Shown here: piece by piece, positions 33,493 to 39,705 of the stretch
Numbering within the stretch: position 1 is the stretch's first letter
How the letters are laid out: every line of letters begins with the position of its first letter
Source of the DNA: an uncultured archaeon
GTDB taxonomy: Archaea > Iainarchaeota > Iainarchaeia > Iainarchaeales > GCA-2688035
Direction: 5' to 3'
Length of the DNA stretch: 64,000 nt
Assembly: GCA_964354805.1 (NCBI GenBank)
Contig: CAYHBD010000009.1
Span: forward strand, 64,001-128,000
Made by a program: the position numbers and the translations under genes
The notes under the pieces: model-generated
Told to the model about the DNA's origin: nothing
The model's input: only the letters and a program-made list of their open reading frames with translations
The model's database searches: none

Positions 33493-34116
33493 ATGGCAAT
33501 AGTAAAACAACTGTTGGGCGGAAACGAAAACGCAATAATTGAAAAAGCCGCAAAAATCCTCAAAGATGGCGGCGTAATAATTTTCCCTACGGAAACAAGC
33601 TATGGCCTGGCTGTTGATGCAACAAACGAGACAGCAATAACAAAAATGGTGAAGGCAAAGGAACAGCCAGAGGAAAAAAACATTTCAATAATCGTATCCG
33701 ATTTGGAGCAGGCAAAAAAATTCGGCAAAATCACGCCTGAAGCAGAAACCCTTGCAAAGAAATTCATGCCAGGGCCCCTGACGCTCGTAGTGGAAAAACA
33801 GTACAATGTGTCGAATGCGCTTGCGGAGAAAACAATTGCTTTCAGAATCTCAAGCAACAGGATTGCAACAGAGCTGTGCAAAGCGCTCGGAAACCCGATA
33901 ACAGCAACCAGCGCAAACCTGCACGGAAGGCCGAACATCTATTCAGGAAAAGAGGCAATAAAGCAGTTTGGCGGCAGGGTTCACATGATTATTGACGCTG
34001 GCGAGCTGCCAAAAATCCCGCCAAGCACAATGTATGACACAATCAACAAAAGAGTCCTGCGCTTCGGCCCAATAACAGAACAGGAAATAAAACAGGTGCT
34101 GGAGGAGCAGAAATGA
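33493..34116 (+). CDS. sua5: Threonylcarbamoyl-AMP synthase, short TsaC/YrdC form
   Basis: FPTETSYGL, PGPLT, TATSAN, PST; no SUA5 C-terminal domain. Confidence 0.93.
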   Translation: MAIVKQLLGGNENAIIEKAAKILKDGGVIIFPTETSYGLAVDATNETAITKMVKAKEQPEEKNISIIVSDLEQAKKFGKITPEAETLAKKFMPGPLTLVVEKQYNVSNALAEKTIAFRISSNRIATELCKALGNPITATSANLHGRPNIYSGKEAIKQFGGRVHMIIDAGELPKIPPSTMYDTINKRVLRFGPITEQEIKQVLEEQK

Positions 34117-34231: not shown

Positions 34232-35233
34232 ATGATTGAACTCAGGTTTGGCGAAATTCTTGACCCGCTGCCTGAAAGGCTTTTGGGCAGGATTACAAAG
34301 CAAACCCTGCAAGGCATAAACAGGTATCCGTCAAACTATGGCAAGCTTGTTTCAAAGCTCGCCAAATTGCATAAAGTGGGGGAAAAAAACATTGTTCTAG
34401 CTAACGGCGTTGACGAAGCAATTGATTTGGTTGCAAGGGCATTTGGGCAAAAGATGGCGGTTTTCACGCCAACTTATTACGAATTTTGCGCTGCAGCGCA
34501 GCGCAACGGCCTGAAATGCAGTGGAATAAATTGTTTTGACGGAAAAAACTATTTCCCGAAATACGACAGCGTGCCAGGAGACTGCACGCTTTTGTTTTTG
34601 TGCAACCCCAACAATCCTTTTGGCACACTGCAAAAAAAAGAAGTCGTTGCATTGGCGCAAAAAACAAAAGCGATGGTTGCAGTGGATGAAACTTACATTG
34701 ATTTTGCCGGTGAAACATTAATCAAAGAGGCTGCGAATTGCAAAAACCTGCTTGTCTTCAGGAGTTTTTCAAAGGGCTTTTGCCTCCCTGGCTTGAGAAT
34801 AGGTTACGTTGTGGGGAACGAAAAGGCAATAAAGAAAATAATGCAGAGAAAGCTTTGCTTCAATGTTTCTTCAGTTGCAGTTGAAGCCGCGTTGCTGGCG
34901 CTGGATGAAAAAAACCATTTCAAGAAGCTCGTGAAATCGGTAATGAAAAGAAAAGCGGCTTTTGAGAAATTTCTGAAAGCAACGGGCTTTGACGTCAAGC
35001 AAAGCAGCATACCAAAAATTTTCATGCGCTTCCGCGCACCGAAACAGGCAATTGCATTCCAGAGGGTTCTGGAAAAAAACGGTTTTGCAATAACAGTTGG
35101 CAACGGGATTTCAACATGCGGCCTTGACAAGAGCTTTGCACAGTTTTCGTGCGGAACTGAAAAGCAAATGAGGCAACTCAAGGAAATAATAAAAAATTCG
35201 GTGAACCCTGATGGATTGGAAAAGCTTGGCTGA
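34232..35233 (+). CDS. Class I/II PLP aminotransferase (HisC/CobD-like)
   Basis: NRYP, NGVDEAI, CNPNNP, VDETY, RSFSK..LPGLRIGY. Confidence 0.88.
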   Translation: MIELRFGEILDPLPERLLGRITKQTLQGINRYPSNYGKLVSKLAKLHKVGEKNIVLANGVDEAIDLVARAFGQKMAVFTPTYYEFCAAAQRNGLKCSGINCFDGKNYFPKYDSVPGDCTLLFLCNPNNPFGTLQKKEVVALAQKTKAMVAVDETYIDFAGETLIKEAANCKNLLVFRSFSKGFCLPGLRIGYVVGNEKAIKKIMQRKLCFNVSSVAVEAALLALDEKNHFKKLVKSVMKRKAAFEKFLKATGFDVKQSSIPKIFMRFRAPKQAIAFQRVLEKNGFAITVGNGISTCGLDKSFAQFSCGTEKQMRQLKEIIKNSVNPDGLEKLG

Positions 35234-36323
35234 AACAAAAGCAGGAATCCTCTGTTGCGGGCTCAAAGAAAGCAAAGCCGCTGAAGAAATCTATGCATTG
35301 CAGCACCCGACATTGCATAAAAGAACAGGAAATGCCGGGTTGCAGCTTGCTTTGCCACAAGGCTTTATTGTAAACGGAATCTACGGCGAAGCTTTTTGCA
35401 AAAAATCGCCTTATTTGGCAGAGAAACAAGGAAAACAATTTTTTGTTTCAAGGAACGGCTCCCTGGTTTGCGCCTGCACCCCGATTCCCGCCCCAAAATG
35501 GTATCACAAAACAACAACAGACGGCAAGCCAATGTCAAGCATAATGCTGCAGGAGGGCAAAGACACTCTGATTTCGAGCGTTTGGAACAATTGCTGTTAT
35601 TTTCAGAACGGAACGCAATGCAAATTCTGCATATTGGGTTATCAAAAAGAAATGCAGTGGAAAAACGAAAAACAGGTTCTTGAAACACTGCTCGCAGCGC
35701 TGGAAGAAAACCCAGCATACCAGCTTCACCTGACAGCAGGCAACAGCGCCAGCCCGGACCACGGCTTGGCAAACTACGAAAAATACGTCAAAACAATCAG
35801 GAAAGAAACCAATCTGCCGGTTACATTGGAAATAAGCCCGCCTGAAGATTTAAAACAGCTCGAAAGCATAATCGCAGCAGGAGCAAATGGCTTTTCAATA
35901 AACATTGAAATATGGGATGAAAAAAAACGCAGGGAAATCTGCCCTGGGAAATCAAAAATAAAACGCGAAAAATATTTCCAGGCATGGCAAAAAGCAGTTG
36001 ATTTGCTCGGAAAATTCAAGACAAGCTCAGTGCTAATAGTCGGCTTGGACAGCAAGGAAAATATTGCAGAAGGCATCAGGGCAATGGCCTGCATCGGAAT
36101 AAAACCAGTCTTAATCCCGTTCAGGCCGTTCGCAAAGTCTGCACTGCATTATTTGCAGCCACCGAAAGCGCGAGAACTGATGAAATTGTCGGAAATTGCA
36201 GGAAAAGAATTAAAAAAAGCGGGCGCAAAGGAAAAAGAACTAATCGGCTGCGAACACTGCGGAGCATGCAGCCTTGAAAAAGATTTTCTGGTTAACGCAA
36301 GAAAGGAAAATGCGGAAAAGTGA
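35211..36323 (+). CDS. Radical SAM protein (MSMEG_0568/biotin-synthase-like)
   Basis: CYFQNGTQCKFC cluster motif, PGKS, IVGL, PFRP, C-terminal CEHCGACS. Confidence 0.85.
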   Translation: MDWKSLAETKAGILCCGLKESKAAEEIYALQHPTLHKRTGNAGLQLALPQGFIVNGIYGEAFCKKSPYLAEKQGKQFFVSRNGSLVCACTPIPAPKWYHKTTTDGKPMSSIMLQEGKDTLISSVWNNCCYFQNGTQCKFCILGYQKEMQWKNEKQVLETLLAALEENPAYQLHLTAGNSASPDHGLANYEKYVKTIRKETNLPVTLEISPPEDLKQLESIIAAGANGFSINIEIWDEKKRREICPGKSKIKREKYFQAWQKAVDLLGKFKTSSVLIVGLDSKENIAEGIRAMACIGIKPVLIPFRPFAKSALHYLQPPKARELMKLSEIAGKELKKAGAKEKELIGCEHCGACSLEKDFLVNARKENAEK

Positions 36324-36339
36324 TGAAAAATGAACTGCC

Positions 36340-36978
36340 CTAAAGCTTAAGAGCGCTTCTAAGGTGGCTTAAGTCCAATACAAAAACCATTAAAGTATTC
36401 TTTTTTGTGTCAATGACATATTCCCAACTCTCAGTGATATCGATTCCGTCTTCTTCAGAAGCACGTTTTGTCATGACATCAACATAATCCAAAGCACTTT
36501 TTATTTCTTGGCTTCTTTCAAGACCCCTTTTTTTAAAAAAAACGAAGACGTTGTTTTTATTCATTGTTTGCAAGTCCCCAAACTTTCGCAAGTCCGTAAG
36601 TGCAAGATGTTTTTCTCCGTTAATTTCAACAACCCTTATTGTTGGTGGCACAGGATACCCTTTTGCCCTAAGATTTTGAAACATCTTAAATTCTCTTTCA
36701 GCAATGCTGCTTTGAGTTTCACCGCAAAACTCTTTCAGGTTATATCTTTTTACAACAAGCCTTATTTTTTTATTTCCTTTACAGACTATAAAATTATAAG
36801 CCCTGCCATGCCGCCCCGCGGCGGGCATTTTCTCGGTTACTTGCAAAAGCCCAGGGCCTGTTATACCAAACAGCGCATTAACTTTCTTAATCTTTTGAAC
36901 CCGGTGAACTGTATCAGGATGGAAATCCTTTTTTCCACCCCTTAAAAAGTTTTTTTGGTGCCCGGATTTGTGCTTCAT
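36340..36978 (-). CDS. Hypothetical protein with kinase-like N-lobe
   Basis: G-rich loop, VVKRY, AEREF, GYPVP, terminal VLDL; catalytic HxD not evident. Confidence 0.55.
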   Translation of the reverse strand: MKHKSGHQKNFLRGGKKDFHPDTVHRVQKIKKVNALFGITGPGLLQVTEKMPAAGRHGRAYNFIVCKGNKKIRLVVKRYNLKEFCGETQSSIAEREFKMFQNLRAKGYPVPPTIRVVEINGEKHLALTDLRKFGDLQTMNKNNVFVFFKKRGLERSQEIKSALDYVDVMTKRASEEDGIDITESWEYVIDTKKNTLMVFVLDLSHLRSALKL

Positions 36979-37079
36979 AATAATTAATGTTATTAGAAAG
37001 TAATTAAATTGTTTAATGGTAGAAGAATATTACAACATTGACTTAAGAAGGCAAATAAAGTTGTTTGTGGTTAACGCTT

Positions 37080-37415
37080 TTAGGCGAGCGCTTTTACGGC
37101 TTGTTCCTCAAACCCAATTTTTTCCATTGATTTTTTCATCAACTCGTTGTCCAATTCAATCAATTGTTTTACCACAGGGTTTTTGTTATTGAGCTTGAAC
37201 ATGCTTGCCTTGCCGACTTTTCTGGTGTAAGTTACTGTATTGGCTTTTTCCAACTTGCCCCAGAAGGTTTCCAATGTATTCCAGGAAACATTGGCATTCC
37301 TGCAAATGTCTTTCTTTGAGTAGTCAAATATGTCGTTCTCTATCAAGAAATCCAAGACCCTAATTATCGGGGAATCGCCAAAGAACAGCACAAACAAAGA
37401 CTTGTCTTCAGCCAT
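37080..37415 (-). CDS. Winged-HTH protein
   Basis: FGDSPIIRVLDFL, YSKKDI..ANVSWNT, TRKVGKASMFKLN. Confidence 0.8.
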   Translation of the reverse strand: MAEDKSLFVLFFGDSPIIRVLDFLIENDIFDYSKKDICRNANVSWNTLETFWGKLEKANTVTYTRKVGKASMFKLNNKNPVVKQLIELDNELMKKSMEKIGFEEQAVKALA

Positions 37416-37614
37416 ACAAAGAAATCCCTTTTATAATTGATATAACTACTTGTAGGTAAATAATTTAAATAGTAGAAGGCCAAGTTTGAGTGCAAAAGAT
37501 ATTTCGTTTTTTGACGGTAAGAAAGAAGCATTTTAAAAGTATCGTATGGGGGTATTTAAATAAGGAAAAAACGAAAAGAAAATATTAAATAGGAGAACTT
37601 ACTTATAAAGGTAG

Positions 37615-37872
37615 ATGCACATGGCAGGAACTTCTTTTTTGACCTTCAAGAAAAATGACGTTGAACAAATACTGACAACGTTAGATATCGTCACAGAAAA
37701 AAAGGGCGTGAAAGAATTTATTTTAGATGAGAAAAAAGAGATTGCAAAGTGCTATGTCTGCGATGAAAAGCTTACTCCAGAAAACATAGGGAACATAATC
37801 AAAGGCTCAAAAATTCTCCTTTGTGACAATCCTTCCTGCTTTAGCGGATACCTTGTTGAGAAAAAACTTTAG
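37615..37872 (+). CDS. Small Zn-finger-like hypothetical protein
   Basis: CYVC...CDNPSC; AT-rich block. Confidence 0.6.
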   Translation: MHMAGTSFLTFKKNDVEQILTTLDIVTEKKGVKEFILDEKKEIAKCYVCDEKLTPENIGNIIKGSKILLCDNPSCFSGYLVEKKL

Positions 37873-37878
37873 ACACTT

Positions 37879-38679
37879 ATGGCTGAATTTATTAACAAGG
37901 TAAAAAAACGATTTGGGGGAAAGGTAAAAATAGGCATAAATCCCTCATTCGAAACTGAAAAGGCTGAAATCCATATTGGGCACAACTACAACATTACGAT
38001 AAATCAGTTCGGAGACAAAACAGACCCAAAAAAAATCTTGGAAAGCTTTGAAAAAGAGCAAATACTTACAAGAGACGACCTACTTCTCCCAGACATAGAG
38101 CAAACAGAAACGGTTATCACAAGAAGTCAACTCCTGCTGTTCTACCGCCCCCATCTAAGCAAAAAAGATTTGGCTGCCCTCAATGACAGTCTTAGCATAA
38201 TAGCTTTGGAAGATAAAGAACTGAATGAGGAAGCAAAAAAAAGACACGAGCAATTGTATAAAGCGTATAAAAAACGGGGTCTCGTGATATATAACTTTGC
38301 AAGAAGTGGGCTCTTTGAAACCGAAATAAAAGTAACCCTTGAAAGGATAATCAAGCAACATCTCGGAAAAGAAGTTAAAACAATAGATGAATTCAATAAC
38401 TATTTTGAAGGACTAATTCAAAGACACCCCGCAAACATTTATGTTAGCAAATACTGGGCTGAACATAGAGTATTGGATGAGATCCAAGAAAGATTGGAAT
38501 TGATATTACGAGATAAAACAAGCTTAATCAAAATATATTGCAGGGAACCGCAATTGGGGATGGTCAAAACTGTGTGTAACCAAGTAGAAAGTTTATTTAC
38601 TATAACTCATGATGAGTATAGGTTTGGAAAAAATAAAGCATACACATTTTATCTGGCCCTTAAAGAAGATGCTGATTAA
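37879..38679 (+). CDS. Hypothetical protein (AT-rich accessory block)
   Basis: 266-aa ORF; stop abuts the kae1 ATG. Confidence 0.65.
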   Translation: MAEFINKVKKRFGGKVKIGINPSFETEKAEIHIGHNYNITINQFGDKTDPKKILESFEKEQILTRDDLLLPDIEQTETVITRSQLLLFYRPHLSKKDLAALNDSLSIIALEDKELNEEAKKRHEQLYKAYKKRGLVIYNFARSGLFETEIKVTLERIIKQHLGKEVKTIDEFNNYFEGLIQRHPANIYVSKYWAEHRVLDEIQERLELILRDKTSLIKIYCREPQLGMVKTVCNQVESLFTITHDEYRFGKNKAYTFYLALKEDAD

Positions 38680-39705
38680 ATGCAGAGCAAAGACGGCATT
38701 ACTTGCCTTGGCATTGAGAGCACCGCACTCTAGAGGGTTCTAGGCGGATATACTTTCGGTGCCGGAATAGTTAGCGACAGCTGCGGCAAATGCAATATTC
38801 TCGCAAACGAAAAGCACAGCGTTTCAACAGCACAGGGCGGCCTGATTCCCCGCGAATTGGCAGCGCACCATTTCAAGCACGCGAAGCAGGTGATAGAGGC
38901 AGCGCTGCAAAAAGCCAACCTGAAAATTGCAGATGTTGATTTGATTGCATTCAGCCAGGGGCCTGGCATTGGGCAGGCATTGAGGGTTGGGGCTGTTGCA
39001 GCAAGAACGCTTGCCCTCGCGCACAACAAGCCGTTGCTTGGCGTGAACCACTGCGTTGCACACGTTGAAATAGGAAAGGCACTTACTGGGGCAAAAAACC
39101 CGATTGTAGTTTATGTAAGCGGTGCAAACACGCAGATAATCGGCTATGAGGAAGGAAAGTATCGTGTTTATGGTGAAACACTTGACATTGGAGTTGGAAA
39201 TCTGCTGGATGCGTTTGGCAGGGCGCTTGGCTTGGGTTTCCCGGCAGGGCCTGTTCTGGACAAAATGTATTTTGAAAAAAAGAAATATGTTCCACTGCCT
39301 TACACTGTAAAGGGAATGGATTTGGCTTTCTCAGGGCTGCAGACAGCGGCAGAGCAAAAAATTGCAAATGAGAGAAAAGAGGACTTGGCTTACAGCCTGC
39401 TGCACAATGCCTTTGCAATGGTTACAGAGGTAAGCGAGAGGGCCCTTGCACACACTGAGAAGAACGAATTGCTGCTCACTGGCGGAGTTGCTGCAAGCAA
39501 GGCGCTGAGGGAAATGCTGCAGAAAATGTGCGATGCGCGTTCATGCAAGTTTTTTGTCCCGCCTTTTGATGTGTGCGTGGACCAGGGAACAATGATTGCA
39601 TGGCTTGGATTGATAATGCACAAAGCAGGCAACAGGATGAAAGTGGAAAACAGCGTTGTCAACCCAAAGCAGAGGGCTGACCAGATTGAAGTGAACTGGG
39701 TTTAA
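38680..39705 (+). CDS. kae1: tRNA N6-adenosine threonylcarbamoyltransferase Kae1; spliced join(38680..38728,38750..39705), 334 aa
   Basis: LGIESTA[H]TFGAGIV after removing 21 nt; GGLIPRE, SQGPG, VNHCVAHVE, VSGANTQ, GETLDIGVGN, GGVAA; ORF track sees only the part after the in-frame TAG. Confidence 0.93.
38729..38749 (+). other. Putative BHB-type mRNA intron in kae1
   Basis: Central helix CCGC/GCGG, 3-nt bulges AC|T and AT|A, inner stem CTAGA/TCTAG with GGGT loop, outer stem GAGAGCA/TACTTTC; in-frame TAG at 38731. Confidence 0.85.

What the first reader, a model, noticed from the sequence alone, without database searches (positions are those of the whole stretch)
38716..38757. Bulge-helix-bulge mRNA intron with an in-frame stop in kae1 (t6A synthase)
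Seen: kae1 starts at ATG 38680 (MQSKDGITCLGIESTA), then reads L*RVLGGY before resuming TFGAGIV. The 21 extra nt (38729-38749, TCTAGAGGGTTCTAGGCGGAT) contain an in-frame TAG. The junctions form a canonical BHB: 4-bp central helix CCGC/GCGG, two 3-nt bulges (AC|T, AT|A), inner stem CTAGA/TCTAG and outer stem GAGAGCA/TACTTTC. Cutting after the second nt of each bulge gives GCA-CAT-ACT-TTC = A-H-T-F, the conserved ESTAHTFG; shifting the cut by 1 nt gives Y or L instead. Known: the archaeal splicing endonuclease EndA cuts BHBs at those positions, and the well-established archaeal mRNA intron is in crenarchaeal cbf5, also an RNA-modification enzyme. Inference: an essential tRNA-modifying gene here depends on the tRNA splicing machinery, possibly coupling t6A supply to tRNA-processing capacity. 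Gene callers would mis-call it as truncated, so more such introns may be hidden in this lineage.
Basis: partly seen in the sequence, partly recalled or inferred. Interest (0 to 1): 0.95.

Follow-up and report, generated by a model that had tools for sequence, protein, structure and literature searches.

The report
Mobile mini-intron in archaeal kae1 gene
An essential tRNA-modification gene (kae1) of a tiny DPANN archaeon is interrupted by a 21-base, tRNA-type intron that very probably must be cut out of the messenger RNA; relatives suggest it was spread by a neighbouring DNA-cutting 'homing endonuclease' gene that this copy no longer has, which would explain how introns too short to encode their own mobility get into protein genes.

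Summary
kae1 of this Iainarchaeota genome carries a 21-nt insert (38729-38749) with an in-frame TAG. Cutting at the standard bulge-helix-bulge (BHB) positions restores the invariant His codon. I found 32 distinct inserts at the same codon position (13-30 nt). Seventeen shift the frame, all 32 contain an in-frame stop (about 10.5 expected), and the central helix covaries with an exon wobble base (C-G 25, U-A 6, A-U 1). EndA and RtcB are present, exon 2 is under purifying selection, and the assembly has no intronless kae1. Splicing is inferred, not shown (no RNA run). The proposed regulatory coupling is unsupported. The intron is patchy (7 of 215 genomes), intron-bearing alleles are not one clade, and an I-DmoI-like LAGLIDADG gene sits directly upstream of an intron-bearing kae1 wherever its context could be read. 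The window copy lacks that nuclease but keeps a probable N-terminal relic of it. carB in the same genome has a second such intron. Best reading: a selfish mini-intron spread by collaborative homing. The scan had already noted kae1 introns, the nuclease link and carB introns on other genomes; I found no published report.

The parts
38680..38728 (+). kae1 exon 1: 16 codons plus the first base of the His codon; holds the first strand and the ESTA part of the N-terminal motif
   Evidence: exon 2 alone aligns from residue 12 of P. abyssi Kae1 2ivn
38680..38697 (+). 6-residue N-terminal extension (MQSKDG), probable relic of the junction with the homing-endonuclease tail (inferred)
   Evidence: the same peptide follows the nuclease remnant in frame in G016 and a near-identical one follows the full nuclease on G000:C4; intronless family members start about 6 residues later
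38729..38749 (+). 21-nt BHB intron (phase 1, splits the His codon)
38731..38733 (+). in-frame TAG, second codon of the unspliced frame; an in-frame stop is present in 32 of 32 homologous introns
38723..38747 (+). central 4-bp helix (38723-26 with 38744-47) enclosing bulge 1 (38727-29), the 5-bp inner stem (38730-34 with 38739-43) and a 4-nt loop
   Evidence: covariation
38716..38757 (+). whole BHB, including bulge 2 (38748-50) and the outer exon-exon stem (38716-22 with 38751-57, one C-A mismatch)
38750..39705 (+). kae1 exon 2; arch_KAE1 TIGR03722 at 425 bits (cut-off 375); HxxxH and the C-terminal Asp motif intact; dN/dS at most 0.14
37879..38679 (+). 266-aa orphan ORF whose stop abuts the kae1 ATG; it occupies the place of the nuclease gene in other intron-bearing loci but is unrelated to it
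33493..34116 (+). sua5/tsaC (t6A pathway); abuts kae1 in many intronless relatives, here separated from it by about 4.5 kb of other genes

Best explanation
It is a real pre-mRNA mini-intron of the BHB class and a selfish element. Splicing (inferred, about 0.93): the transcript folds into a BHB, EndA cuts after the second base of each bulge, and RtcB joins the exons, rebuilding the His codon of ESTAH. Unspliced RNA gives only a 17-residue peptide. Spread (inferred, about 0.7): a free-standing LAGLIDADG nuclease gene directly upstream of kae1 cuts intronless alleles at or near this conserved motif. Repair copies in the nuclease, exon 1, the intron and a few tens of bases of exon 2; the intron breaks the target and protects the new allele (collaborative homing). 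In this copy the nuclease gene was later lost or displaced, leaving an immobile intron kept spliceable because kae1 is essential. The conserved stop probably acts as a fail-safe that ends translation of unspliced RNA and, where the nuclease ORF runs in frame into exon 1, also ends the nuclease (inferred, about 0.6). Shown here: sequence, predicted fold, covariation, distribution, gene linkage, nuclease fold. Not shown: RNA splicing, DNA cleavage.
For: 32 distinct inserts at one phase-1 position, 13-30 nt, 17 frameshifting, 32 with an in-frame stop against 10.5 expected by shuffling and 9 and 2 in the other frames. Central helix paired in 127 of 128 cells; pair 2 is C-G 25, U-A 6, A-U 1, with the exon side a Thr wobble base. 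The non-C-G cases come from searches that did not fix the helix sequence. Inner pairs 1-3 paired in 58 of 66 cells against a shuffled mean of 38.8 (kin are not independent). His is invariant in 49 of 49 intronless alleles. EndA and RtcB present; 26 of 44 ARAGORN tRNA calls have introns. dN 0.13-0.18 against dS 1.1-4.5. The only other kae1 in the assembly also has an intron. Mobility: intron in 7 of 215 genomes across 4 families; nuclease in 4 of 215, each time next to an intron-bearing kae1; 10 of 10 further nuclease homologs checked lie just upstream of kae1 and all 10 have the intron; the model (pLDDT 90.6) matches I-DmoI best (E 3e-8). The exon-2 tree groups several intron-bearing alleles with intronless sisters of the same genus or family, needs 9 state changes (4 forced by starred branches), and one clade is rejected, p-AU 8e-12. 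Flanks are mosaic: G015 matches distant intron-bearing alleles near the junction (0.70-0.90, against 0.57-0.77 for its sisters) and its sisters beyond +90 nt (0.71-0.88 against 0.44-0.76).
Against: No RNA or protein evidence of splicing here. The outer stem is imperfect, while the single EndA found is about 170-185 aa (alpha4-like size), a type reported to need strict BHBs (PMC6379350), and it has Thr where the catalytic Lys usually lies. No nuclease next to the window copy; the only homolog in G000 is on the 2.4-kb contig C4. Counts of state changes cannot tell gain from loss. Shared flanks may partly reflect an extended outer helix rather than co-conversion. The first search pattern fixed the helix sequence, inflating its conservation in 21 of the 32 cases. 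Both trees are quick trees without bootstrap.
Confidence: 0.72

Rival explanations
1. A real BHB intron, but ancestral in these archaea, kept as a regulatory link between tRNA processing and t6A supply, and lost many times; the nuclease is a passenger.
For: The intron occurs at the same site in other archaeal groups, including a Micrarchaeota record and neighbours of genes labelled Nanoarchaeota and Woesearchaeota. Tree counts cannot tell gain from loss. The conserved stop shows selection on the unspliced product.
Against: It needs loss in about 97% of genomes (7 of 215 carry it). Nuclease homologs were always linked to intron-bearing kae1 in the contexts read. Flanks are mosaic, and G015 has a 3-residue exon-2 insertion that its genus sisters lack. 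carB carries the same kind of intron.
Confidence: 0.17
2. No splicing: Kae1 is made by translational recoding (TAG read-through, frameshifting, or ribosomal bypass as in T4 gene 60).
For: The window insert keeps the frame and places a stop in a hairpin, as at bypass sites. A TAG=Q read-through product still scores as arch_KAE1.
Against: 17 of 32 homologs shift the frame, in both directions, and use all three stop codons, including a 20-nt variant in a near-identical strain. The invariant His codon is split across the junction, so only RNA joining rebuilds it.
Confidence: 0.03
3. Pseudogene or assembly artefact, with the true kae1 missing from this 88.5% complete assembly.
For: The assembly is incomplete and a second kae1 exists on contig C4.
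Against: The C4 copy is itself interrupted by a 22-nt frameshifting BHB insert. Exon 2 is intact, under purifying selection and in the conserved operon. The insert recurs in independent assemblies with compensatory changes.
Confidence: 0.03
4. The intron spreads by an RNA route (EndA/RtcB reverse ligation into mRNA, then reverse transcription), as proposed for tRNA introns, without the nuclease.
For: The genome is rich in tRNA introns. 4 of the 8 phylum loci have no adjacent nuclease, and none is seen near carB here.
Against: All 32 introns sit at one position, share the first bulge and helix layout, and are tightly linked to one nuclease family. A nuclease remnant in G016 shows that loss happens. 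This route could still explain the first origin.
Confidence: 0.05

Closest known systems
cbf5 pre-mRNA BHB intron of Desulfurococcales and Sulfolobales (Watanabe 2002; Yoshinari 2006; Yokobori 2009, PMC2738675)
   Same: Short BHB intron (16-44 nt there, 13-30 nt here) inside the coding sequence of an RNA-modification enzyme; splits the codon of a key residue; variable interior; often a relaxed motif.
   Different: Different host gene and phylum. cbf5 was inferred to be one gain inherited vertically with losses, of unclear origin and too short to encode a nuclease. This one is patchy, not monophyletic, linked to a free-standing nuclease, and always carries an in-frame stop. cbf5 splicing was shown by cDNA; this is not yet.
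Collaborative homing: F-CphI and the psbA group I intron of cyanophage S-PM2 (Zeng 2009, as described in PMC6083498)
   Same: A free-standing endonuclease gene beside an intron-bearing conserved gene, with the intron protecting the allele from cleavage.
   Different: That is a self-splicing group I intron with an Endo VII-type nuclease in a phage. Here the intron is 21 nt and needs host EndA/RtcB, the nuclease is LAGLIDADG, the locus is an archaeal chromosome, and cleavage is untested.
Archaeal rRNA BHB introns encoding LAGLIDADG nucleases (such as I-DmoI)
   Same: BHB splicing plus a LAGLIDADG nuclease; I-DmoI is the best structural match of the linked protein (PMC2738675, PMC6125680).
   Different: There the nuclease is inside the intron and the host gene is rRNA (the location of I-DmoI in a 23S rRNA intron is from my own knowledge). 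Here it lies upstream of a protein gene, often in frame with exon 1, and is about 415-430 aa.
Haloferax HVO_1309 5'-UTR BHB intron (Schwarz 2020, PMC7714728)
   Same: An mRNA substrate of EndA.
   Different: It lies in the untranslated leader and does not interrupt a reading frame.

Membership tests
Archaeal BHB (EndA-spliced) intron | 4-bp central helix flanked by two 3-nt bulges | tested here: met
   pair probabilities 0.97-1.0; paired in 127 of 128 cells with compensatory changes
Archaeal BHB (EndA-spliced) intron | Cuts after the second base of each bulge restore the conserved host sequence | tested here: met
   only the predicted register gives His; it holds in all 32 loci
Archaeal BHB (EndA-spliced) intron | Flanking helices on both sides (strict form) | tested here: inconclusive
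   inner stem 5 bp, met; outer stem 1 pair, a C-A mismatch, then 5 or more pairs, with the first pair formed about 13%; 9 of 22 homologs pair at the mismatch
Archaeal BHB (EndA-spliced) intron | Host encodes EndA and RtcB | tested here: met
   catalytic Tyr and His present, the Lys position is Thr in all five relatives read
Archaeal BHB (EndA-spliced) intron | Spliced RNA or in vitro cleavage demonstrated | not testable with these tools
   no RNA holder listed; only DNA contigs laid
Collaborative homing pair | Free-standing homing endonuclease gene adjacent to the intron-bearing gene | tested here: not met
   Not met for the window copy, which is therefore filed as a probable leftover of such a pair, not an active member. 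Met at 4 phylum loci and 10 of 10 further loci.
Collaborative homing pair | The partner is a nuclease of a homing family | tested here: met
   weak LAGLIDADG_3 hits; two LAGLIDADG-like motifs with invariant G-D positions; fold matches I-DmoI
Collaborative homing pair | The nuclease cuts the intronless allele but not the intron-bearing allele | not testable with these tools
   needs a cleavage assay
Collaborative homing pair | Patchy, non-vertical distribution with co-converted flanks | tested here: met
   caveat: an extended outer helix may explain part of the shared flank
Archaeal Kae1 (TIGR03722) | Score above the curated cut-off; HxxxH and N-terminal motif intact after splicing | tested here: met
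Group I or II self-splicing intron | Catalytic RNA core of hundreds of nucleotides | tested here: not met
   21 nt

The most novel reading that the evidence does not exclude
Protein-spliced mini-introns invade essential archaeal protein genes (kae1, carB) by collaborative homing with free-standing LAGLIDADG nucleases, move between genera and probably phyla, persist after the nuclease is lost, and are selected to keep an in-frame stop. Where the nuclease ORF runs into exon 1, splicing would switch the mRNA between a free nuclease and a nuclease-Kae1 fusion frame. Archaeal mRNA splicing would then be common and systematically mis-annotated rather than a cbf5 oddity.
Probability: 0.6. Interest if true: 0.88.

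Novelty: new variant of a known kind. Interest (0 to 1): 0.78.

Why it matters
In the literature I could search, cbf5 is the only archaeal coding sequence with a demonstrated BHB intron (PMC7714728), and its authors left open how an intron too short to encode a nuclease arises and spreads (PMC2738675). This locus family offers a testable answer, and the loci look like successive stages: intact nuclease (C4, G015, G103), remnant (G016), nuclease gone (this window). kae1 is essential in Haloferax (PMC3426518), so splicing would be obligatory. Gene callers truncate these genes, which distorts gene inventories of DPANN genomes. The assays needed are simple.

Tried and rejected
RNA evidence: no RNA holder listed; this says nothing on expression. 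Viral contigs: no match to the intron pattern. A loose order-wide pattern gave mostly chance hits; G036:C12 is an unrelated ORF. The 266-aa ORF upstream of kae1 as a nuclease: no Pfam hit, only weak PHROG and PDB hits, no usable Atlas hit, two homologs (the one checked lies beside nrdD, not kae1), and no similarity to the nuclease family. cbf5 was not found in G000 with PF08068 (assembly 88.5% complete). The L44e start reads without a break. No second EndA subunit found. Genome-wide BHB scans gave only kae1 and carB as recognisable repairs; the other candidates looked like gene junctions or chance but were not checked by homology, and in-frame stop-free or very relaxed introns would be missed (the C4 intron itself was missed). 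A sequence-profile search of the nuclease against PDB gave only weak PI-SceI hits. The careful tree did not finish. Literature searches for kae1 with intron, BHB or homing endonuclease found no report; most subscription journals are not covered.

Full report
Observation. The sequence is as described. kae1 starts at 38680, reads to ESTA, then meets an in-frame TAG at 38731-33 inside a 21-nt insert, 38729-38749. Removing the insert gives a 334-aa Kae1; only the predicted register gives His, and neighbouring registers give Tyr or Leu. The central helix (38723-26 with 38744-47) and the inner stem are predicted at 0.86-1.0 in contexts up to 351 nt. The outer stem has a C-A mismatch at pair 2, so the pair closing the 3' bulge forms only about 13% of the time: the motif is near-canonical rather than strict. 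In a strict genome-wide scan for BHBs whose removal repairs a coding frame this site ranked first, and in a relaxed scan it was the best short candidate. A contig from a public sediment run covers the site with a 20-nt variant.

Organism and machinery. A same-family genome, G015, carries the same intron and nuclease as a record titled Candidatus Iainarchaeum, so the host is an Iainarchaeota (DPANN) archaeon: 1.38 Mb, 88.5% complete. It encodes EndA and RtcB, and 26 of 44 tRNA calls have introns. Exon 2 passes the arch_KAE1 cut-off, keeps the HxxxH and Asp motifs, and has dN 0.13-0.18 against dS 1.1-4.5. It lacks the first 11 residues of P. abyssi Kae1, so it is unlikely to work alone (inference). 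The only other kae1 in the assembly is on a 2.4-kb contig (C4, 69% identical, probably from a co-binned relative) and has a 22-nt frameshifting insert at the same position.

Comparative evidence for splicing. Pattern scans and nuclease-neighbour look-ups gave 32 distinct inserts at this phase-1 position, 13-30 nt long. Seventeen shift the frame, which excludes read-through as the general mechanism. The central helix is paired in 127 of 128 cells, and its second pair, an exon Thr wobble base against an intron base, is C-G 25, U-A 6 and A-U 1 times. The variant pairs come from searches that did not fix the helix: a codon-neutral pattern and loci fetched through the nuclease. Inner pairs 1-3 hold in 58 of 66 cells with four pair types, against 38.8 in shuffles. 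His is invariant in 49 intronless alleles. All 32 introns contain a stop in the unspliced frame, at codons 2 to 5 and using TAG, TAA and TGA; 10.5 are expected from composition, and the other two frames have 9 and 2. Related sequences are not independent, but position and codon vary, which points to selection.

Distribution and mobility. A codon-neutral pattern finds the intron in 7 of 215 genomes of the phylum, in 7 genera and 4 families. In the exon-2 tree G103 groups with intronless G102, G015 with intronless G017 and G019, and this gene with intronless G001 and G012. The intron state needs 9 changes and a single intron-bearing clade is rejected (p-AU 8e-12; quick trees). Near the junction, intron-bearing alleles resemble each other more than their sisters; beyond about +90 nt this reverses for G015 and G103. 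Identical-codon rates just outside the 7-bp stem are 0.59 among intron-bearing alleles and 0.33 against sisters; far away they are 0.44 and 0.50. An extended outer helix may account for part of this. I saw long ORFs ending at the intron's stop upstream of several intron-bearing alleles, just after earlier scan notes had suggested a homing endonuclease, and tested this. The ORF has weak LAGLIDADG_3 hits and folds like I-DmoI. It occurs in 4 of 215 genomes, always next to an intron-bearing kae1, once as a remnant. Of 62 homologs, all 10 whose contigs I read lie directly upstream of kae1, and all 10 of those genes have the intron. The window copy has no nuclease: a 266-aa orphan abuts the start codon and about 4.5 kb of other genes separate kae1 from sua5. 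Its N-terminal extension matches the peptide that follows the nuclease remnant in G016, a probable footprint.

A second intron. The same site is filled in G017 and G008 and empty in 10 other family members. mRNA splicing here is therefore not limited to RNA-modification genes.

Mechanism. Most likely EndA cuts after 38728 and 38749 and RtcB ligates the exons (inferred from established BHB chemistry, PMC6379350; about 0.93). The intron arrived with an upstream LAGLIDADG gene by collaborative homing, the arrangement described for F-CphI and psbA (PMC6083498), and the nuclease was later lost (about 0.7). The stop limits unspliced RNA to a 17-residue peptide and ends the nuclease ORF where that is in frame with exon 1 (about 0.6). 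One loose end: the EndA of these archaea is a single short subunit with Thr at the usual catalytic Lys in five of five sequences read, yet both mRNA introns have imperfect outer stems, which the literature assigns to other EndA types. Rivals (an ancestral regulatory intron, recoding, a pseudogene, RNA-mediated spread) are weighed in their own sections.

Comparison and novelty. It works like the cbf5 intron and meets the testable features of a BHB intron, except that the strict outer helix is inconclusive and splicing is not shown. It is not an active collaborative-homing pair in this window, since the nuclease is absent. I found no paper on a kae1 intron or on a free-standing nuclease mobilising a BHB mRNA intron; the library lacks most subscription journals. 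The scan had noted kae1 introns with and without the nuclease, and carB introns, on other genomes. Those notes are unchecked leads and are not counted as support. Verdict: real, a new variant of a known kind, interest 0.78.

Noticed in passing
G000:C22:14237-14270 (-), locus L144:2238-2271: 34-nt BHB intron with frameshift and stop in carB, between GEAGE and FDYSG; shared with G017 and G008, absent in 10 family members; no nuclease-sized ORF seen between carB and the upstream gene.
   Followed up: partly
L001:1474-2031 (-): EndA has Thr in place of the catalytic Lys of the Tyr/His/Lys triad, as do G012, G031, G103 and G015; no second subunit found. Possibly a lineage-specific EndA variant with relaxed specificity.
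   Followed up: partly
L102:874-2154 (-) (G000:C4): Full LAGLIDADG ORF in frame with kae1 exon 1 and ended by the stop inside a 22-nt intron, so splicing would create a nuclease-Kae1 fusion frame; the same arrangement in G015, L092, L099, L166, L170 and L171. The contig is probably from a co-binned relative.
   Followed up: partly
window 34232-38679: About 4.5 kb of genes between sua5 and kae1 (class I/II aminotransferase, radical SAM protein, 212-aa orphan, 111-aa HTH-like ORF, 85-aa and 266-aa orphans). The sua5-kae1 junction holds different genes in different relatives, intron-bearing or not.
   Followed up: partly
window 37615-38679: The 85-aa and 266-aa orphan ORFs may travel as a pair: the homolog of the 266-aa protein is also preceded by an 83-aa ORF, beside nrdD (L177:2244-3325). 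Similarity of the two small ORFs was not tested.
   Followed up: no
G016 (92% complete): Carries the kae1 intron, but no EndA match was found with the G000 query; probably an assembly gap, not checked with the family model.
   Followed up: no
L169:1801-3136 and the insert just downstream: This 28-nt intron has the only mismatch in the central helix among 32, and the upstream nuclease gene does not translate cleanly to its called product; it may be decaying or hold a second interruption.
   Followed up: no
G000 genome-wide: 26 of 44 ARAGORN tRNA calls contain introns, several long (up to about 160 nt) or at unusual positions; some calls are probably mis-parsed.
   Followed up: no
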